IMG/VR virus record: IMGVR_UViG_3300011242_000003
Location: 82,795 to 146,794 of that record
Length of the DNA stretch: 64,000 nt
Source: a virus
Taxonomy: Duplodnaviria; Caudoviricetes
Strand: one strand, 5' to 3'
The translations under genes and the position numbers were made by a program. Under the pieces are notes generated by a model. It was not told where the DNA came from. It made no database searches and saw only the letters and a program-made list of their open reading frames with translations. Within the stretch, counting starts at the first letter, position 1, and each line of letters opens with the position of its first letter. Below are positions 8,027 to 64,000 of the stretch, one piece after another.

Positions 8027-8440
8027 GTGAAAAATATGGCTAAAGACTATTTATGTAAAGACTGTGAATTTAACAATAATGGATGGTGTAAAAAGAGAAA
8101 AATACAAGGATTAAAAGATATTGTCGTATGTGAATTTAAACCAAGCCCAACGTCAATAGAGGATGAAGAATTTGATAGTGGAATGTATAAACAATTTGGT
8201 AAAAGAGAAATGTTCCATAATGTTCAAATGCAAATGATAGGTATTGATAGAGATGACTCTGTAGAGGATAAATTTAAAATATTAAAACAGGTTATGGTTA
8301 ATTTAGAACAAATGTTACAAGCAGAAGAAAGTATTCATGGAATAGCAATAGAATATTCAGTTGATGAAGATATTCACAAAGATAGCATTGCAATAAGCAA
8401 TGAATGGCTTAATGAAGTAGGACAATATAAGGGAGATTAA
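8027..8440 (+). CDS. hypothetical protein, N-terminal Cys cluster
   Basis: CKDC...C...C. Confidence 0.7.
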   Translation: MKNMAKDYLCKDCEFNNNGWCKKRKIQGLKDIVVCEFKPSPTSIEDEEFDSGMYKQFGKREMFHNVQMQMIGIDRDDSVEDKFKILKQVMVNLEQMLQAEESIHGIAIEYSVDEDIHKDSIAISNEWLNEVGQYKGD

Positions 8441-8442
8441 AA

Positions 8443-8616
8443 ATGAATAAAATAATTAAAGAAAGAATAGTTAAATCAAAATGTATGGCTGATATGCTAG
8501 TTTGGTTAGGGTTTGAATATGAAAAAGGTGAAGAAGGATATATTTTTGAGAGAACTTATATGTTTGATAATGCTTGGAGAGATATACATTGTTTAAGGCA
8601 AATGTATAGAAAGTAA
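8443..8616 (+). CDS. small hypothetical protein (57 aa, below ORF-track cut-off)
   Basis: RBS GGGAG; MNKIIKERIVKSKCMADML... Confidence 0.65.
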   Translation: MNKIIKERIVKSKCMADMLVWLGFEYEKGEEGYIFERTYMFDNAWRDIHCLRQMYRK

Positions 8617-35160: not shown

Positions 35161-35601
35161 GTGTTAGAAAATCAAAGTATTAATAGTGTTTCAAAAGAGG
35201 AGAATTGTACTTGCTACAAGTGTGGTCATACATATAAGAAAGATAAAATAAAGAAATTTAAAATACATGACAGAAATGAAACTAGCTATTTTTATTATAC
35301 AGATGCAGATATATACTTATGTGAAGAATGTCAAACTCTTATTGATACAGATTGGTTTAATAATGAGGAGATGTTACATCAAGATTCAACTTACAACTGT
35401 GAAGAAGAATTACAAGACTTTATAAATAATTTTCCTTTAGAGTATCAAGAGAAAGTATATAACCAAGGCTTTCCATCTGAATATAGAGTGGATAGCAAAG
35501 ATTGGATAAAAGACCAAATTAAGTTAGATAAAATATTAAAAAGAAAAGAGTGGAGTGATAGTGAGATTGAACAATATATAAGCTATTATGAAAATACATA
35601 G
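35161..35601 (+). CDS. zinc-finger hypothetical protein
   Basis: CYKC...LCEEC; RBS GGGGAG. Confidence 0.7.
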   Translation: MLENQSINSVSKEENCTCYKCGHTYKKDKIKKFKIHDRNETSYFYYTDADIYLCEECQTLIDTDWFNNEEMLHQDSTYNCEEELQDFINNFPLEYQEKVYNQGFPSEYRVDSKDWIKDQIKLDKILKRKEWSDSEIEQYISYYENT

Positions 35602-35636
35602 AAACCATTGTATTGATAAAAATATATAATTTGTTT

Positions 35637-35735
35637 ACAATTTATTCATATGAAAACATGAGTAAAATGGAGTAAACAAGAGTAAATGAGAGGTGAGTTA
35701 GTAAAATATACCATTAAAATAGTTATTTTAAAAGG
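35637..35735 (+). repeat. composite element, copy 2
   Basis: AGTAAA at 35661, 35671, 35681; box A at 35715. Confidence 0.7.
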
Positions 35736-35745
35736 AGTGTATAAA

Positions 35746-36030
35746 GTGATAAATTATATTAAAAATTTGTTTAAGAGAAATGAGGCAAAAGAAGAAATAT
35801 CAGAGAACAATATTAAAAATAAAAAATATTTAGTTAAAAAGGTTATATACGAAGAAATTGTTGATGAAAATAAACTTAAAGAAATTATAAGCGAATATAA
35901 TATGCAGATTAAACCTAAAGCATATGCCAAGAAAGACGGAGTGAATATAATGTGTTTTCAACCAAGACCTGAATATAGGTTAGATATCGAAGAGATGTAT
36001 GAGGAGGATTTTGATGAAAAAGAAATGTAG
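35746..36030 (+). CDS. hypothetical protein
   Basis: GTG start after AGGAG. Confidence 0.65.
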   Translation: MINYIKNLFKRNEAKEEISENNIKNKKYLVKKVIYEEIVDENKLKEIISEYNMQIKPKAYAKKDGVNIMCFQPRPEYRLDIEEMYEEDFDEKEM

Positions 36031-36348
36031 CAATTGCACTCACTGGATACCATATATAGATAATGGACAATGCAACCTAGATTCTCATTATTGTGAATGT
36101 GATGATAAGTGTGAAAAACATAATTATGATTATGTAGGAGTATTATTAAAGAACTATGGAAAAATGATGACTCTGCATATTCACAAAGAAAACAATTTGA
36201 ACTACAAGAAGAAATAATTAACATAGCTAAAATATTAAATAATATTAAAAGATTTGAGGAGTTAACTTTAGATGAGAAAATACAAACCATTAAAGAGTGT
36301 ACATTAAGATATGAGAGAGAAGATAAAATGATAGTTTTCATTGTATGA
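36014..36348 (+). pseudogene. frameshifted (or -1 recoded) gene: Cys-rich N-terminus plus tape-measure-like segment
   Basis: MKKKCSNC...VGVLLK, then the -1 frame ELWKNDDSAYSQRKQFELQEEI...IV*. Confidence 0.6.
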
Positions 36349-36384
36349 ATAAAATATTAAAATAAAACAAAAGGAGATATAAAA

Positions 36385-37442
36385 ATGGGAATGTATACTG
36401 GATTGAGATTTAAAGGAATTATAAAACAAGAGTACAGAGATGATATAAACGATTTAATCAATAATTGCTCTGAGTGGGAGGATTTACAATGTGATATATT
36501 TAAAGATTTTAGCAAAATTAGTAGAAGTAGTTTTATTCCATTTGGTGGTTTATCATATATGCCTGATTTATGGGAAGAAGATACTGGTTTAAGAGATAAA
36601 TACGGATATATGATAACTAAAGATACCGATGGGTTTGATAGGAAATTTGATAAAGAAACAGGCTTATTAACTTTCCAATGTAGTTTAAAGAATTATGATG
36701 ACACAATAGAGTATTTTTTAAATAATATATTAGTAGCTATATGTGAAAAATCATATCATATAGAAGAATTTTATGAAGAGAGTAATATATCCACAATGTA
36801 CAAGATTAACGATGGGGAATTGATAACTTTAGACAAAGGAATTAGATATAATGAATATGATAAAGATTATAATTACTTTACGGGAGAAGAAATTTACCAC
36901 AATGAAAATTTTTATAAGTTGAGTGAATATGATTTTACATATGGTAAAATGTGTTAAAATAATTGATTTAATCGAAGGAGAGGTATAATGTCAAGAAATT
37001 ATATATGTGAAAGACATGATTATTGTTTAAAAAATTTAAGTAGGGTACGAGATGAAATATCAAGAGGTATTAAATTTAATAAAGATGATGTAGAAGCCTT
37101 AGTTGATTTACTAGATAGTATTGACTCTGATATATACGATATAATTGACGAAATAGAATGTGTTAAAGAAATGGGTATTAAAATGGAAACCAGATTATCA
37201 AACTACAGGATGGCGATAGAAGACTTAGGGTTTCAAAGAATAAATAATTAAGGATGGGATATATAATGGAAAATATCAATTCTGTAATTGAAAGAAATAT
37301 ATGTATTCATTGTATATACAATGTTAGTTCCAATGGTTGTAAATGGAATCCGTATAAACAATGTACTGAATATGATAAAGAATTTTTTGATGGCGATTAT
37401 TTCAAAGAAAAGTATTTAAAGGAGGATATTAAAAATGTATAA
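36385..37442 (+). other. three hypothetical CDS (36385-36957, 36988-37251, 37254-37442)
   Basis: ORFs with RBS; the first is bracketed by box A 36324 and 36955. Confidence 0.7.
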
Positions 37443-38788: not shown

Positions 38789-40524
38789 ATGTTAAGTGAA
38801 GAAGAATTGAATAAACGTATAGAACTAGCTTTATGTATGGAGTTATTAAAGGAATATAATTCTTTTGATGATATTAAAACAAACTTTGATTTAATATCAT
38901 CAAGAGAGTGTTTAAGCAAAATGACATTAGAGGAACTTAAAGTGAAGTCAGAAGAAATACAGCAATTAATAATTAAACATGAAACTGTTAAATTTTTAGA
39001 TAAGGTTCTTAAAGAAATAGAATTGTATGGCGTGGAATATACCAAAGAGAAGTACTTGAAGGAGAGTTAAAAATGACTACACAAGAGTTAATTAATATAT
39101 TAGAAACCAAAATAAAGGATAAATCTAAACCAATAGGATATAACGTTAATGGTGAATTTAGAACGCTAGATGATTTAGTTGGCATCAATGAATGGGAAGA
39201 TGTAATAGAACTACAATATGAATTAGAAGTGTAAAGGAGATAAAATATGTGTAATATTTGTAATTGTCCATACTGTGGATATGAAAATAAAATAGACGAT
39301 TATGAAGGTGATTCCTTTGACCATGAATGTTTTAACTGTGGGGAAGAGTTTGAGGTAGAAGTTGAATATGAGCCTACCTTTTCAGCCAATAAAATAGAGT
39401 ATATAAAATGTGATGAATGTGGAAGAGAAGAAAGAAGCTCCAATATGAGTTATGAAAACTCAACTTTCCCTTATCCTCAAAAGTATAAAGAGAATAACTC
39501 TAAACTGTGTCATGATTGTTATGTTAAAGGTGTATTTGAGGATATTGAAAAAGAAGACGTGGATGATTTGTTTAAAGAATTGTGTGAATTAGAGAAAGCA
39601 AGACAAGAAGTTAAAACAGAAATTTTAACCGAACAATATATTAAATAAAGGAGGTAAGGTATGAATGTATTAATATCAATATTAATAGTTGTAGCTCTTA
39701 CTATATGTATGTTTATAATTGCAGAAGTAATATACTATTTATTAATCTTTATTCACTATGTATTAAGAAAAACAATATTGAAAAAATATGAATATAATAA
39801 AACACTTAATAAAGTTAAATACAAGCTAGGTTATAATCAACAGATGATTTTATTGTACAAAGGGGAGATTAAAGAACTGCCAGAGTTGTATAAAAATGAA
39901 ACACGCATTTGCTATTGTTTTAAAGAATGGGACTATCCTAAAAAGTTAGGTATTGATGAGAAGTTACTACAAGAAGGTGTGAAAAGTCAAAAAGAATGTC
40001 TAAGACTAAGTAGAATTTATTATGAAAATAAAAGGCAAGAAGATATTAAATCAAGAGTAGAATTTCTTGAAAAGGAATTAAAAGATATAAAGGAGAGAAT
40101 GTAATGAAATTATATAATGCAATTTGTTATGATGATGACTACGATATACAAGAGGTGCAAAATATTATAGCCAAAGATGAAGCAGATGCTATTAAGAAAG
40201 CACAGTCAATTAATCAATTCTATTCTGATGTTAAGGTTAAAGAACTTGGTATTGTAGGTGGATATAAGGTTAGATTAGAAAGGATTGAGGAATAGTATGG
40301 ATAAATTAAATGTTATAAAATTTTTAACTGATGAAATAGAAAAAGAAAATATTAAAATCAATACATATGATGAAGAATATGAAAAGGCTAAAATTCAATA
40401 TCCTGAGTTTATTCCTTGGGAGTGGTTTAAAAATCATCCACGAGGTAGTAATTCTAAGATTAAAGAGTATCTAAAAACTATAAGAAGATTATCTTTGGAA
40501 ATTGAGAAGGAGATGATGGAGTAG
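38789..40524 (+). other. six hypothetical CDS (38789-39070, 39073-39234, 39247-39648 zinc ribbon, 39661-40104 TM, 40104-40295, 40297-40524)
   Basis: Packed ORFs with RBS. Confidence 0.7.
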
Positions 40525-40525
40525 G

Positions 40526-41812
40526 ATGGATAAGATAATAGAAATTATAAAACAATTACAAAATACTTCAGGAACAAATGATAAATTGGCAATATTAAAA
40601 GCTAATAAAGATAATGAATTGTTAAAGAAGGTTTTAGAATATACATATAATCCATTTAAGAAATATAAAATCACTGAAAAGACTTTATATGACATAGAAG
40701 ATTATCCAGATATATTACCTAATATATCAATTTTTGAATTGTTAGATTTACTCTCAGAAAGTAATATAAATGATTCTCTAAGATGTACCATAAAATCATA
40801 TCTAAAACACTACTACATAGAAGATAAACAAATATACGAATTATATGCCATGATGTTATTAAAAGACCTTAGAATTAATATGGGTATCAAATCAATTAAT
40901 AAAGTATGGAAAGGGTTAATACCTGAATTTAATGTAATGTTAGCAGAGTCTTATTTCAAACAAAAGGAAGGATTTTTAAAAGGAAGAAACTTTATATTAA
41001 GCACAAAATTAGATGGTAATAGGCTTGTAATTATAAAGAGAAGTGGCACAATTGAGATGTATACTAGACAAGGTAAATTGATGACAGGTTTAATTGAAAT
41101 AGAAAATGATGCTAAACAATTACCTGATAATATGGTTTATGACGGGGAACTTATAGCAGACAATATTAATAATCTACCAAGTGATGAATTGTTCAGAGAA
41201 ACTATGACTAAGGCAAGAAAAGATGGAAATAAAACAGGATTGATATTCCATTGTTTTGATATGTTGCCCGTAGAGGAATTTGAAAAAGGTAGCTCTAAGT
41301 TAAATGCTCATGACAGAAAACAAATGTTAGAAAATACATTGTCAAAATTATTATTAGACCATATAGTAAATGTTAAAACATTATATAAAGGCAATGACGA
41401 ATCTAAAATAATAGAATTTCTTAATTGGGCTAAATCAAAGAATTTAGAAGGTGTTATGTGTCAATTGTCTGATGGAGTATATGAATGTAAGAGGACTAAA
41501 AATATATTAAAAGTTAAAGCAATGTTAGATTGCGATTTAGAAGTAATTGGATTTGAAGAAGGACAGGGTAAGTATGTAAATTCCCTTGGACGACTCAATG
41601 TTGAATATAAAAACAATATAATAGGAGTTGGAAGTGGGTTTTCAGACTCTATGAGGGATGAGATATATAACAATCAAGATAAATATATAGGTAGGATTGC
41701 AAAGATACAATATTTTGAAGAAACCACTAATAGCAAAGATGACAAAGTTAGTTTAAGATTTCCTATATTTATAGAGTGGAGAGAAAAAGGTAAAGAAGTG
41801 AGTTATAACTAA
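40526..41812 (+). CDS. ATP-dependent DNA ligase
   Basis: TKLDGNR; YDGEL; FDML; LEGVM; GVGSGFSD; SLRFPIF. Confidence 0.92.
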   Translation: MDKIIEIIKQLQNTSGTNDKLAILKANKDNELLKKVLEYTYNPFKKYKITEKTLYDIEDYPDILPNISIFELLDLLSESNINDSLRCTIKSYLKHYYIEDKQIYELYAMMLLKDLRINMGIKSINKVWKGLIPEFNVMLAESYFKQKEGFLKGRNFILSTKLDGNRLVIIKRSGTIEMYTRQGKLMTGLIEIENDAKQLPDNMVYDGELIADNINNLPSDELFRETMTKARKDGNKTGLIFHCFDMLPVEEFEKGSSKLNAHDRKQMLENTLSKLLLDHIVNVKTLYKGNDESKIIEFLNWAKSKNLEGVMCQLSDGVYECKRTKNILKVKAMLDCDLEVIGFEEGQGKYVNSLGRLNVEYKNNIIGVGSGFSDSMRDEIYNNQDKYIGRIAKIQYFEETTNSKDDKVSLRFPIFIEWREKGKEVSYN

Positions 41813-60121: not shown

Positions 60122-63100
60122 TTATCTTTTTACTCCGCCATTCCTTAGTTGACTTTTAACAACTTTTTCAATATTGTTATCCAATCTTCTTGTATCTAAT
60201 TCACTACCATTATTATAAATCTCCCATTCATTCTTATAAACAACAGTAGGACTATCTTTTGAAACATCAATATTTTTTAATATATTTTTGAATAAATTAT
60301 ACATACCATCTTCAATAGCCATATATTTTTCTAAATCTTCAAGATAAGGTACTAGTTTAGTAAATGCTTCTGTTTGTTGTTGATTTAAAACAAGCTCTTT
60401 TTTATGTAATAGTGCAGGAATGCCACCATTATCGAAATCCCCTGTATACATTCCACCTGTCTTGAATTTAGATACTTTGTCCTTTTTAATCCAACCAATA
60501 GCACCGTTAATATTATTAGTTCTACTTAGTGCCACTCTACCATTATTATCATTTACAACATATAATCCATCAGATGTTTTAATACCTGCACCTTTCCAAC
60601 TACCACTACTACGTGATGTTGAACTATCCACATATATATCAGAAGATAAATCTTTAACTTTTACCTTACTACCCTTTTTAACATTTCCAGTAGAGGTAGT
60701 GCTACTTCCACTAGATGAACCCTTACTAGAGGAAGACCCACTAGATGACGACTTACTGCTTGAAGCCGTTCCATTTGCAATCTTTTGGTCTTCTTTTAAT
60801 TGATTTATCATATCTTTTACATAATCAGATATACTGCCCGTAGTTTCTTTGAAATAGTCACCATATTTTGTAAGTAAACTCTGAATTTCTTTGTAGTTCT
60901 TTTCTTTTAGCAATTTATCTGCTTCTTGATATAGACGTGAATCCTCTAATAATTTATCATATTTACTTTCTATTGTTTCTTTCTCTTTTTCTTTTGCTTC
61001 AATTTGTACTCTTAATTCAGATTTAGCAATTTCTTCTTGTAGTTCATATTGTTTTTTCTGACTATATGCCGAATCATCATTTTTCCATAATTCTAACTCT
61101 GCTTTTAACTTTTTAAGTTTTTCACTTTCATTAGAATATCCGTTTTCTAATCTATCAAGTTGTTCTTTTAACTTATCTATTTCAGCATCAATCTTTTTAA
61201 TTTCTGCCTCACGCATTTCTTCATACTTTTTCTTTAATGCATTAACCAATTCATTTCTCATATCAAGAATACGTTTATTTGCCTCTTCTTCTGCTTTTAT
61301 TCTTTCCGCTTCATAATCTCTAGCATCTTTTTCCACTTGTTCTTTTGATTTGGAAGTTGGTGGTTTGGATGAACCACCTTTAGGTTTAGAACCACCTGAG
61401 GATGTACCTTTATAATCCGCACCATTAAAGCTAACTCCTCCACCCCCAAACCCTCTATTAAATTCACTAAATGAAGTATTAATTCCTTTTATCCCTGCAT
61501 CAACCGTTTTAATTTGTTTTATAGTATGAGCTAATGCTCCATTCATATTGAAAGTTGGGTCACCAAAATCTTGCATAGCCACGTTTTGCATACTAGTTAT
61601 TAGATTATTAAAATTACCTTGCAAAACTGACATCTGTTGATTAAGTTTTTGTAAAACATATGCCTTTTGTTCAGCTAATGATGTAAAATTTTGTAAATCC
61701 TTTTCATATTGAGAGGCTGAACCTCCAACTAAGTTACTTAGCCATTGTGCTAATACTGGATTTAAACTATTCATTAACCCTGCTTTTGCTTCATTGAGAG
61801 TACGATAGTTTCTTACATCAAAATTATAAGCGGAACTATTAACATCTACAAATTGACTAGCGTATTCGTCAAACATAGATTGTGCCTCATCAGCATTGGA
61901 TAATAGTGATGAATAGTATGCTTCATTATTCCCCATCATTATTTGATATGCTTCATTTTGAATACTTTCCATTCCTGCAATTTTTTGATTTAAAAACTCT
62001 TGTGCATCTGAAACATTAAAAATTGCTCCACCAATATCAGGATATTTACTCGCTATAGATGCTACTAAATCTGGTGTCATCGACCCCGCTTCATTGATTT
62101 TTTCTATCATATCATATAATGATTTAGCTTCAGCGGTTGCTTTTCCATAAGATTCTGTTGCTGTTGCAATCATATCAGGAGAACCCAAATTGCCCACATC
62201 AATGTTTTTCATCTTTTCTTTAACCTCGTCCGCAGTTAAACCTAATGAATTCAAAGAATCTTCCATTATTTTTGTTTTCATCGCAACAGAATCAACACTC
62301 ATTCCTTGTCCTATATCAACATTGCTATTTTGCTCTTTTGCTGTTTTGTTAGCGTTGAGACTTTCTGTTGATTGGTTTATATAGCCATTAAGAACATTAT
62401 ATGCCTCACCTAAATTCTTATTGTCATCTTTTAATAGTTTTAATGCGGGTAAAAGTGCATTTATGGTAGATTGATACCCTTCAACTATTTCTTGATTTTT
62501 CTTTAATCCTGAGTTGCTTACAAGGTGAAAGTCACCCGTTTCATCCTTATACCATTTTTTACCTTCTAATTTTAATTTATTATATTCTTTAAGTTTTTCA
62601 TTTGCATCTTCATAATTTTTAATTAATTGATTCATACTTTCAACACTTGCATTTTGTGCGTTTACATTGTTTTTATCTAAAACTTCATTAGCTTTTGCCT
62701 TAGATAATTCAAGATTTTTATCTATTAACTTTTGAGTAGCATCTACATTTAACATCTTTTTATTCGTGTCTTCATCTATATAAGTTATTGCATCTGGATA
62801 TACAGCAAGTAATCCCTCCAACGCAGATTGAAGTTCTTGCTCTTTTTCAGCGTACTCTTGTGTTCCTTTTTTAACATTTTTTAATTGGTTTTCTACCGAT
62901 TTGTAATTATCAATTAAGTCAGATACATTATTATTTGCATCATTTTTCATTGAGGATGCAAACTCGTCATTTAATTCTTTTAGTTTTTCATCAGCATGAA
63001 CTATACTATCCGCAAATTGCATTACTTTTGTTATTAATGATGTTATTAATAAAGATATTCCCATTGAAAACACACTTGATATCGCTACAGAAGCAATTTT

Positions 63101-64000
63101 AGATGTAACACTTACTGCTTTTAATGAGGTGTCTAACACTTTTGTTTTTACAGATGTTGCGATAGCACCATTCCCCATAAATTTAAAAGCATTATTAACG
63201 CCATTGGTGATAGTGGTTGTTTTTTCTGCTGTAAGCCCATACTTTCCTATAGCGGTAGACATTGACTCAGTCGCCATTGCTGTAGATTTCATTATTACAG
63301 ATGCTTTGTTAAATGCGACTATTGAACCTGTTGCAATGGCAACTACTGTAGGAATCCCACCGAAAACCTCTATTATTTTGCTTAAAATATTCAACACTAC
63401 TGTTCCACCAGAAACTATTGATTTAATATCTTCTGAACTTATAAGACTAACCCATATACTAGATAGTGTTTCTTTAAAAGCGTTCATCTTTCCTTCTATA
63501 GAGTCAAGATATAATTCTTGTTCACGTTGGGCTGAACCACTTGAATTCAAAGCTGTATTATAGGCGTTAATACCATCAGTCATATTTGACATAATTCCGC
63601 TGAATATATTCCCTTGTCTTTGACCTGCAATTACATATTGTAAATAAGCCTTTTGACCATCAGTTAATTTAGGATATATCTCTGATAATTCAGTCATTTG
63701 CTGATATGTGGATTTAAAAGTATTTTCATCTAACATTATATCTACTTCTTTGCCTGCATCCGCTGTAAGTTGTTTTATAACATCTCTTAATTTTGATACA
63801 GGTATTGAGGTTTCATCTATCTCAGTTTTCATTCCACGAAGTCTCATGCTCAGGGTCTTGATTGCATTACCTACTTTTTCAGAATCCTGAATTGATGCGT
63901 TACCCGCCACAAATATACCAACAGATTGTTCATAGCTGTTACCTGCTTCAGATAATGCATTACCCATTTGCCTTAATCCATTTGCAACATCTTCTGAAGT
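60122..64000 (-). CDS. tail tape measure protein (5' end outside the window) with C-terminal SH3-like domain
   Basis: GNAIKTLSMRL, FKSTY, AGQRQ repeats; frame is open to the window edge; GWIKK; ALLHKKELVLN. Confidence 0.9.
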   Translation of the reverse strand, partial: TSEDVANGLRQMGNALSEAGNSYEQSVGIFVAGNASIQDSEKVGNAIKTLSMRLRGMKTEIDETSIPVSKLRDVIKQLTADAGKEVDIMLDENTFKSTYQQMTELSEIYPKLTDGQKAYLQYVIAGQRQGNIFSGIMSNMTDGINAYNTALNSSGSAQREQELYLDSIEGKMNAFKETLSSIWVSLISSEDIKSIVSGGTVVLNILSKIIEVFGGIPTVVAIATGSIVAFNKASVIMKSTAMATESMSTAIGKYGLTAEKTTTITNGVNNAFKFMGNGAIATSVKTKVLDTSLKAVSVTSKIASVAISSVFSMGISLLITSLITKVMQFADSIVHADEKLKELNDEFASSMKNDANNNVSDLIDNYKSVENQLKNVKKGTQEYAEKEQELQSALEGLLAVYPDAITYIDEDTNKKMLNVDATQKLIDKNLELSKAKANEVLDKNNVNAQNASVESMNQLIKNYEDANEKLKEYNKLKLEGKKWYKDETGDFHLVSNSGLKKNQEIVEGYQSTINALLPALKLLKDDNKNLGEAYNVLNGYINQSTESLNANKTAKEQNSNVDIGQGMSVDSVAMKTKIMEDSLNSLGLTADEVKEKMKNIDVGNLGSPDMIATATESYGKATAEAKSLYDMIEKINEAGSMTPDLVASIASKYPDIGGAIFNVSDAQEFLNQKIAGMESIQNEAYQIMMGNNEAYYSSLLSNADEAQSMFDEYASQFVDVNSSAYNFDVRNYRTLNEAKAGLMNSLNPVLAQWLSNLVGGSASQYEKDLQNFTSLAEQKAYVLQKLNQQMSVLQGNFNNLITSMQNVAMQDFGDPTFNMNGALAHTIKQIKTVDAGIKGINTSFSEFNRGFGGGGVSFNGADYKGTSSGGSKPKGGSSKPPTSKSKEQVEKDARDYEAERIKAEEEANKRILDMRNELVNALKKKYEEMREAEIKKIDAEIDKLKEQLDRLENGYSNESEKLKKLKAELELWKNDDSAYSQKKQYELQEEIAKSELRVQIEAKEKEKETIESKYDKLLEDSRLYQEADKLLKEKNYKEIQSLLTKYGDYFKETTGSISDYVKDMINQLKEDQKIANGTASSSKSSSSGSSSSKGSSSGSSTTSTGNVKKGSKVKVKDLSSDIYVDSSTSRSSGSWKGAGIKTSDGLYVVNDNNGRVALSRTNNINGAIGWIKKDKVSKFKTGGMYTGDFDNGGIPALLHKKELVLNQQQTEAFTKLVPYLEDLEKYMAIEDGMYNLFKNILKNIDVSKDSPTVVYKNEWEIYNNGSELDTRRLDNNIEKVVKSQLRNGGVKR

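What the first reader, a model, noticed from the sequence alone, without database searches (positions are those of the whole stretch)
36014..36348. Early gene hides a 22-aa copy of the phage's own tape-measure protein behind a -1 frameshift
36151-36216 encodes ELWKNDDSAYSQRKQFELQEEI. TMP (61028-61093, - strand) has ELWKNDDSAYSQKKQYELQEEI. That is 20/22 aa and 56/66 nt identical, with mostly synonymous changes including a Ser AGT/TCA switch, suggesting protein-level constraint or capture from a relative's TMP. The segment is in the -1 frame of the Cys-rich ORF starting at 36014. The junction is TTA AAG (an A_AAG shift-prone tetramer) with AGGAG 7 nt upstream, so it is either a 1-nt deletion or programmed frameshifting. 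Inference: a TMP-epitope decoy against a host sensor, or an inhibitor of tail assembly or superinfection.
Basis: partly seen in the sequence, partly recalled or inferred. Interest (0 to 1): 0.72.

Follow-up and report, generated by a model that had tools for sequence, protein, structure and literature searches.

The report
Tape-measure DNA patch scarring two small genes
A 66-base piece of a phage tail tape-measure gene has overwritten the boundary between two small early genes. It lengthens the first gene and removes the start of the second, and it looks like a one-off recombination scar, not a programmed frameshift or a decoy.

Summary
Window 36151-36216 matches the tape-measure (TMP) gene at 61028-61093 (- strand) in 56/66 nt and 20/22 aa. 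The edges are sharp, and it is the only other copy in the genome.

The frameshift and decoy reading fails. Ten related contigs carry the Cys-rich gene as a stand-alone 52-56 aa ORF. In five of them a separate 50-54 aa (or longer) gene follows, with its own ribosome-binding site and ATG. No homologue joins the two genes.

In this phage about 50-66 nt at that junction were replaced by TMP sequence. The exchange points lie in two 17-18 nt zones where TMP and the old junction already resembled each other. Gene 1 therefore runs 15 codons further, in the wrong TMP frame. Gene 2 has lost its ribosome-binding site, ATG and first ~13 codons.

The slip site has no heptamer and no downstream RNA structure, and the layout is not conserved.

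The 10 nt differences from the resident TMP change only 2 residues (P ~5e-6). The donor was therefore probably a diverged TMP allele.

This is a new example of ordinary phage mosaicism. The scan has noted comparable TMP-fragment scars on other DNA.

The parts
36014..36217 (+). Gene 1: small Cys-rich (probably zinc-binding) protein, 67 aa plus TAA here. Codons 1-51 (36014-36166) are homologous to the 52-56 aa stand-alone relatives. Codons 52-67 (36167-36214) are a new tail, read from the TMP patch in the wrong frame.
   Evidence: ORF list. Alignments to relatives. The source's gene caller called this 67-aa ORF, and it is a singleton cluster.
36151..36216 (+). TMP-derived patch, 66 nt, in the -1 frame relative to gene 1 and in frame with the remnant of gene 2.
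   Evidence: 56/66 nt and 20/22 aa to the resident TMP. E 2.4e-17. Three-way chimera pattern.
36151..36168 (+). Left exchange zone. 13 of 18 positions are shared by the window, the TMP and at least one relative's ancestral junction. This covers the last codons of gene 1 and the old ribosome-binding site.
36200..36216 (+). Right exchange zone. 14 of 17 positions are shared by the window, the TMP and relatives, including a 10-nt run identical between the TMP and L006. It encodes ..EEI in both the TMP and gene 2. Positions 36217-36225 match neither well.
36217..36348 (+). Remnant of gene 2, a small helical protein of unknown function. The conserved core and stop (36346-36348) are intact, but the ribosome-binding site, ATG and first ~13 codons are gone. 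No ATG/GTG/TTG occurs in this frame between the upstream stop (36127-36129) and 36328.
   Evidence: Homologues P0001 and P0002 and loci L004-L006, L010, L011. The core shows no excess of non-synonymous change.
36136..36151 (+). AGGAG (36136-36140) and A_AAG (36148-36151), the proposed stimulator and slip site. AGGAG arises from Val-Gly-Val codons; relatives have only GGAG there.
   Evidence: No RNA structure downstream.
61028..61093 (-). Resident TMP counterpart of the patch. It is residues 970-991 of the part of the TMP visible in the window and lies inside a module conserved in 13 TMP homologues.
60122..64000 (-). Tape-measure gene. It runs off the window and record end and continues at the record start, giving 1685 codons stop to stop once the 98-nt terminal overlap is joined.
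   Evidence: phrog_4211 8.5e-68

Best explanation
This is a recombination scar. Ancestrally the locus held two separate, translationally coupled small genes. Gene 1 was a 52-aa Cys-rich protein ending ..KYGRM[KR]. One to three bases after its stop came gene 2, a 50-54 aa protein starting MYNKAI, with a GGGAGG ribosome-binding site embedded in the end of gene 1. In the lineage of this phage a short tract of a tape-measure gene replaced that junction. The tract is at most 66 nt, of which about 30-50 nt are unambiguously TMP-derived. The two exchange points lie in 17-18 nt zones where the TMP sequence and the old junction were already 70-80% alike. This suggests a short-patch double exchange or a template switch guided by microhomology; that step is inferred. 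There are three consequences, and all are shown by the sequence. (1) The stop of gene 1 is gone, so gene 1 reads 15 extra codons through the patch in a non-TMP frame. (2) Gene 2 has lost its ribosome-binding site, ATG and first ~13 codons. (3) The TMP-frame 22 codons happen to be in phase with the rest of gene 2 but have no canonical start. The donor was probably not the TMP allele now in this genome. It was more likely one about 15% diverged at the DNA level, either from a co-infecting relative or resident before a later swap of the tail module. The differences are almost all synonymous, as they are between true TMP orthologues. No programmed frameshift or decoy function needs to be invoked.
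For: (a) Ten related contigs were examined (L004-L006, L008-L014; L012-L014 are near-identical at this locus). All carry gene 1 as a stand-alone ORF with its stop at the same place. It is followed by gene 2 in five, by an unrelated gene in L012-14 and by others in L008/L009. Gene 1 and gene 2 are therefore independent modules, and the stop is ancestral. (b) The three-way comparison gives, outside the patch, 19 and 26 positions matching only relatives against 1 and 2 matching only TMP. In the core 36169-36199, 11 match only TMP against 2 only relatives. The edge zones are shared by both. The replacement adds a net 4 nt, which accounts for the frame offset without any point indel. (c) The 22-mer lies in a module conserved across 13 TMP homologues of 400-2200 aa. 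It is absent from every relative's early locus, so the direction is TMP to early locus. (d) Divergence: patch to resident TMP is 56/66, patch to L007 TMP 51/66, and resident to L007 55/66. All three encode nearly the same peptide. P ~5e-6 for 10 substitutions and P ~2.5e-5 for the 7 on the patch branch under random substitution. (e) Singleton: searches of 5.8 billion clustered proteins found the 67-aa extended gene 1 only in this record, and no fused form of 36-126 aa or 92-2000 aa. A degenerate protein-level DNA pattern for the 22-mer found nothing else in IMG/VR or the GTDB genomes. (f) With an L006-type junction as proxy, the TMP site is the best double-anchor match in the whole genome at 28/37. 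Other relatives rank it less clearly, so this is only suggestive.
Against: The gene 2 remnant shows no decay. There are no stops or indels in 44 codons, and the ratio of synonymous to non-synonymous change against relatives is like that among intact relatives. The event is therefore either recent or the remnant is still used. The patch is in phase with gene 2, a 1-in-3 coincidence. The donor allele was not found in any collection. No RecT, ERF, RecA or YqaJ homologue was detected in the genome, so the enzymology is unknown. Raw reads could not be inspected.
Confidence: 0.82

Rival explanations
1. The hybrid open frame (TMP 22-mer plus gene 2 core, 36130-36348) is expressed. Expression would come from low-level -1 slippage at A_AAG, from non-AUG initiation (ATT at 36142/36145 after AGGAG), or from re-initiation at the gene 1 stop. 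The TMP-derived helix is kept by selection, for example as a TMP mimic, a decoy for a TMP-sensing defence, or a modulator of tail assembly.
For: The patch is in phase with gene 2 and open. The differences from the resident TMP are strongly synonymous-biased. The gene 2 core is undecayed. A_AAG is a known shift-prone tetramer and AGGAG lies upstream (established knowledge of dnaX-type shifting). TMPs are contacted by host defences such as SNIPE (bioRxiv 10.1101/2025.11.03.685801).
Against: There is no X_XXY_YYZ heptamer. There is no structure downstream (z = -0.01). AGGAG is 7 nt upstream, not the 10-14 nt typical for -1 stimulation, and is only a Val-Gly-Val codon by-product that relatives lack. 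There is no canonical start. The layout is a singleton among ten relatives and 15 billion proteins. The synonymous bias is equally explained by a diverged TMP donor.
Confidence: 0.08
2. Assembly artefact: the metagenomic contig is chimeric, either mis-joined at this spot or stitched from two strains, so the patch or its 15% divergence from 'its own' TMP is not real for any single phage.
For: The record is a metagenome assembly and reads could not be checked. A strain chimera would explain why the patch differs from the TMP in the same record.
Against: The shared runs at the edges are 10 nt or less, far below assembler k-mer sizes, so an assembler could not splice 66 nt there. The patch is not identical to any other sequence in the record. 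The contig closes on itself with a clean 98-nt overlap and an intact 1685-codon TMP across the join, which indicates a good assembly.
Confidence: 0.04
3. A single-base sequencing or mutational indel has split one ancestral fusion gene (Cys-rich domain + TMP-like helix + C-terminal part) into two frames.
For: The two frames overlap for 88 nt, and a 1-nt change would join them.
Against: Relatives show no indel at the junction. The ancestral state is two genes with a stop, a ribosome-binding site and an ATG. No fused homologue exists. Frame 0 keeps homology beyond the supposed break.
Confidence: 0.02

Closest known systems
Mosaic 'novel joints' in phage genomes made by illegitimate or homeologous recombination (Hendrix/Juhala/Pedulla model, from my own knowledge; lambda Red recombination between 22%-diverged sequences, with joints in identity blocks as short as 2 bp, Martinsohn et al. 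2008, PMC2327257)
   Same: A foreign tract with sharp borders sits in an otherwise collinear locus. The borders fall in short, imperfect pre-existing similarity ('shoulders'). The likely donor is a related phage.
   Different: The tract is very short (66 nt or less) and comes from a non-homologous gene, a tail gene copied into an early-gene junction. It is not an exchange of allelic modules. It damages two genes and does not swap intact ones.
Microhomology-mediated templated insertions and template switching (MMBIR/FoSTeS-type events)
   Same: A short stretch is copied from an ectopic template and both ends are anchored in microhomology. The result is a replacement of nearly equal length (net +4 nt).
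   Different: The mechanism is not demonstrable from one sequence. The donor is ~15% diverged from the only copy in the genome, so the template was probably another genome or an allele that has since been replaced.
Programmed -1 ribosomal frameshifting (dnaX; phage tail-chaperone G/GT)
   Same: Two overlapping frames, an A_AAG tetramer, and an SD-like AGGAG upstream.
   Different: No heptamer, no downstream structure, unsuitable and unconserved SD spacing, and no conservation of the two-frame layout. Relatives terminate gene 1 and restart gene 2.
Stand-alone TMP-derived mini-genes and TMP-contacting defences or exclusion systems (SNIPE, bioRxiv 10.1101/2025.11.03.685801; Ltp-type superinfection exclusion, from my own knowledge)
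   Same: A piece of TMP sequence lies outside the tail module.
   Different: Here the piece has no start of its own, is only 22 codons from the middle of the TMP coiled-coil region, and is not conserved in any relative.

Membership tests
Programmed -1 ribosomal frameshift site | Slippery heptamer X_XXY_YYZ in the zero frame | tested here: not met
   Zero-frame codons are GTA TTA TTA AAG AAC. Only the A_AAG tetramer is present, and no heptamer occurs anywhere in the 88-nt overlap.
Programmed -1 ribosomal frameshift site | Stimulatory RNA structure 5-9 nt downstream | tested here: not met
   Fold of 36152-36240: -4.2 kcal/mol, z = -0.01 against shuffles. No Rfam family anywhere in the window.
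Programmed -1 ribosomal frameshift site | Two-frame architecture and trans-frame product conserved in homologues | tested here: not met
   Ten relatives have separate genes. No fused protein was found.
Programmed -1 ribosomal frameshift site | Measured frameshifting or a trans-frame peptide | not testable with these tools
   Needs a reporter assay, ribosome profiling or mass spectrometry.
Recombination scar / mosaic joint | Chimeric three-way pattern: flanks match orthologous loci and the core matches the donor | tested here: met
Recombination scar / mosaic joint | Relatives retain the uninterrupted ancestral state | tested here: met
   L004-L006, L010 and L011 carry the stop, ribosome-binding site and ATG of gene 2.
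Recombination scar / mosaic joint | Segment is native to, and conserved in, the donor family | tested here: met
   13 TMP homologues conserve the module around the 22-mer.
Recombination scar / mosaic joint | Short pre-existing similarity at both borders | tested here: met
   13/18 and 14/17 shared positions. The genome-wide rank of the TMP site is only suggestive.
Recombination scar / mosaic joint | Identified donor sequence identical to the patch | tested here: not met
   No TMP with the patch's DNA sequence was found in IMG/VR, the GTDB genomes or the protein clusters. The nearest are the resident TMP (85%) and L007 (77%).
Tape-measure protein (donor gene) | Profile match and tail-module context | tested here: met
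   phrog_4211 at 8.5e-68. tblastn to annotated TMPs of large Bacillus and Lactococcus siphophages. The orthologue in L007 lies next to Sipho_tail and Prophage_tail genes.

The most novel reading that the evidence does not exclude
The start-less hybrid frame (TMP-derived 22 residues fused to the conserved core of gene 2) is translated early in infection, by slippage at A_AAG or non-AUG initiation. It is maintained by selection as a mimic of an internal TMP helix, for instance to titrate a host factor or a defence protein that recognises the tape measure.
Probability: 0.06. Interest if true: 0.65.

Novelty: new member of a known kind. Interest (0 to 1): 0.2.

Why it matters
The finding is mainly a clean, datable example of how phage genomes get scrambled. 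A tract of a few dozen bases from a structural gene was copied into an unrelated early locus at two microhomologies, remodelling two genes at once. The longest gene in the genome, with coiled-coil coding sequence, is a likely donor simply because of its size and composition. The case is also a caution: a peptide-preserving divergence pattern can be inherited from the donor gene family and need not mean selection at the new site. It does not reveal a new frameshift signal or anti-defence device.

Tried and rejected
- Nearest phage records: blastn (distant mode) of 35600-37000 against 50,697 phage records gave no match.
- Orthologous loci in IMG/VR: the search for related loci with the Cys-rich alignment found no relative. 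The JGI metagenome scan gave one, L006.
- Other carriers of the 22-mer: a degenerate DNA pattern for the first 10 residues of the TMP motif found no further carrier in viral contigs or genome contigs.
- Function of the two small genes: Pfam and PHROGs gave nothing significant. The ESM Atlas returned only unnamed small viral proteins for gene 1 and nothing for gene 2.
- Structure: AlphaFold2 of gene 1 with 7 sequences gave pLDDT 47.6, too poor to use, so no fold search was run.
- TMP internal repeats: none, so the patch is not closer to another TMP repeat unit. With the record circularised, the whole TMP holds one copy only.
- Donor allele in 90% clusters of the closest TMPs: none.
- Phage recombinase (RecT, RecA, ERF, YqaJ profiles) in the genome: none detected.
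- Rejected: alternative genetic codes, because the -1 frame upstream of 36130 holds many stops of several kinds.
- Rejected: an antisense-RNA role, because the patch is in the sense orientation of the TMP mRNA on the early-gene strand.

Full report
**1. Observation**

Window 36151-36216 (+) and the reverse complement of 61028-61093 share 56 of 66 bases and encode 22-mers that differ at two conservative positions, R/K and F/Y. Ungapped extension on either side shows no further similarity, so the edges are sharp. BLAST against the whole record gives E = 2.4e-17 and 4e-14.

The segment is in the -1 frame of the ORF starting at 36014.

The - strand ORF is a tape-measure protein (TMP). It hits phrog_4211 at 8.5e-68 and gives tblastn matches to annotated TMPs of 130-170 kb Bacillus and Lactococcus siphophages.

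The locus lies among ribonucleotide reductase, DNA ligase and type II topoisomerase genes.

The record is a 146,794-nt IMG/VR virus contig with 27.7% G+C, and the window is its last 64 kb.

**2. What relatives show**

The -1 frame product has two small homologues. Both start with their own Met, MYNKAI...

On their contigs (L004, L005), on a JGI contig (L006) and on Logan contigs (L010, L011), the Cys-rich protein is a stand-alone 52-aa ORF ending ..KYGRM[KR]. One to three bases after its stop comes a separate gene starting MYNKAI. A GGGAGG ribosome-binding site for that gene is embedded in the last codons of the Cys-rich gene.

In L012-L014 the same Cys-rich gene is followed by an unrelated 62-aa gene. 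In the more distant L008/L009 it is followed by others, and the stop is always at the same position.

The two genes are therefore independent modules and are never fused. Searches for fused forms found none, whether of 39-126 aa with the C-terminal part, 92-2000 aa with the Cys-rich part, or 36-118 aa with the extended ORF. The extended 67-aa version of gene 1 exists only in this record.

**3. Anatomy of the scar**

A DNA alignment of the window with five relatives, with the TMP laid on in register, gives these counts:

| Region | Matches only relatives | Matches only TMP | Shared by window, TMP and a relative |
|---|---|---|---|
| Left flank 36120-36150 | 19 | 1 | 5 |
| Left zone 36151-36168 | 0 | 4 | 13 of 18 |
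| Core 36169-36199 | 2 | 11 | 12 |
| Right zone 36200-36216 | 1 | 2 | 14 of 17 |
| 36217-36225 | 4 | 2 | 1 |
| Right flank 36226-36270 | 26 | 2 | 16 |

- The right zone includes a 10-nt run identical between the TMP and L006.
- Positions 36217-36225 fit neither source well.
- The replacement is 4 nt longer than the ancestral stretch. This alone moves gene 2 from the +1 to the -1 frame relative to gene 1, and there is no point indel at 36148-36151.

Three consequences follow from the sequence:

- The gene 1 stop is overwritten, so gene 1 continues for 15 codons through the patch in a non-TMP frame to TAA at 36215-36217.
- Gene 2 loses its ribosome-binding site, ATG and first ~13 codons.
- The TMP-frame 22 codons are in phase with the gene 2 remnant, but that frame has no ATG, GTG or TTG between the stop at 36127 and 36328.

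The frame-0 reading keeps the relatives' C-terminal ..K.YG.M beyond the proposed slip site. This argues against a fusion at 36148.

**4. Direction and donor**

A phmmer search of 1.84 billion representatives with 160 TMP residues around the 22-mer returned 40 proteins, most of them well over 1,000 aa. In an alignment of 13 of them, the 22-mer lies in a conserved module with an invariant Trp and a D/N-S pair. The segment is therefore native to TMPs and foreign to the early locus.

The closest TMP is P0003 on L007, 88% identical over the segment and located in a tail module. It shares the Phe of the patch.

At the DNA level the patch matches the resident TMP at 56/66 and the L007 TMP at 51/66, while the resident and L007 match at 55/66. 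Ser codon-family switches also occur between the two genuine TMPs.

Ten random substitutions would leave 2 or fewer residue changes and no stop with P ~5e-6. For the 7 substitutions assigned to the patch branch, with 1 or fewer residue changes, P ~2.5e-5. The divergence therefore accumulated under selection in the TMP frame.

The simplest reading is that it accumulated inside a TMP gene. The donor would then be a TMP allele ~15% diverged from the one now present, either from a co-infecting relative or the resident allele before a later tail-module swap. No such allele was found.

The record's ends overlap by 98 nt, and the TMP ORF reads across the join for 1685 codons. The genome is therefore complete, and it contains no other copy of the segment.

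**5. Frameshift hypothesis**

- There is no X_XXY_YYZ heptamer in the 88-nt overlap.
- The 89 nt downstream of A_AAG fold no better than shuffles (z = -0.01).
- No Rfam family matches anywhere in the window.
- AGGAG is produced by Val-Gly-Val codons. Relatives have only GGAG there.
- The two-frame layout is unique to this record.

I put programmed frameshifting, or any selected expression of the hybrid, at under 10%.

**6. What remains open**

The gene 2 core shows no stops or indels. Over the 31 core codons compared, its differences from relatives (4-6 non-synonymous and 6-11 synonymous codons) resemble those among intact relatives. The event is therefore recent, or the remnant is still used in some way.

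Using an L006-type junction as a proxy for the ancestor, the TMP site is the best double-anchor match in the whole genome at 28/37. With other relatives it is only among the best, so this is suggestive and no more.

No RecT, ERF, RecA or YqaJ gene was detected. The mechanism, whether a short-patch double exchange or a template switch, is inferred from the anatomy and from what is known of relaxed phage recombination (PMC2327257).

Reads could not be examined.

**7. Comparison and verdict**

This is an instance of phage mosaicism by microhomology-guided illegitimate recombination. It is unusual only in that the patch is very short, comes from a non-homologous late gene, and damages two early genes.

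TMPs are known to be contacted by defences such as SNIPE (10.1101/2025.11.03.685801). The decoy idea is therefore conceivable, but nothing here supports it.

Earlier notes of this scan describe comparable TMP fragments in small phage genes on other DNA. One was judged a copying scar. Another is a conserved stand-alone mini-gene, a useful contrast because it has its own start and a second carrier.

Interest is low. The value lies in a well-resolved evolutionary footprint and in the caution about reading selection from a donor-inherited substitution pattern.

Noticed in passing
window 63903-64000 and record positions 3-100 (outside the window): The record's two ends overlap by 98 identical bases, and the tape-measure ORF reads straight through the join (1685 codons stop to stop). 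The contig therefore looks like a complete circular or circularly permuted genome of ~146.7 kb, although it is classed 'linear' with 79% estimated completeness.
   Followed up: yes
window 40526-41812 versus L010 11415-13430 and L011 4315-6261: At the syntenic position upstream of the GyrB/ParC-like topoisomerase genes, this phage has an ATP-dependent DNA ligase (PF01068, 428 aa). Its relatives L010 and L011 have an NAD-dependent LigA-type ligase (PF01653 with BRCT, 648-671 aa). This is a non-orthologous replacement.
   Followed up: partly
L006 1158-1502 and L011 1669-2382: Gene 2 (MYNKAI..) is modular. It is 50-54 aa in L004, L005 and L010, but in L006 and L011 the same 47 residues continue into a much longer protein (237 aa in L011).
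   Followed up: partly
window 35686-36030: A 114-aa ORF lies between the 146-aa CxxC protein gene and the Cys-rich gene and overlaps the latter's start by 17 nt. It has no counterpart in L005, L010 or L012, which have a ~110-nt spacer. L006 has a different 71-aa hydrophobic ORF there.
   Followed up: no
window 8441-8616 and record 65912-66086 (outside the window): A 177-nt direct repeat with 87% identity sits in an intergenic position after ORF 8027-8440. No Rfam family matches it.
   Followed up: no
window 38861-38907: An imperfect 47-nt palindrome (89% self-complementary) lies inside or next to ORF 38789-39070.
   Followed up: no
window 37254-37442 and 35161-35601: Two further small Cys-rich (CxxC-type) proteins lie within 1.5 kb of gene 1. 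This early block is rich in small putative zinc-binding proteins of unknown function.
   Followed up: no
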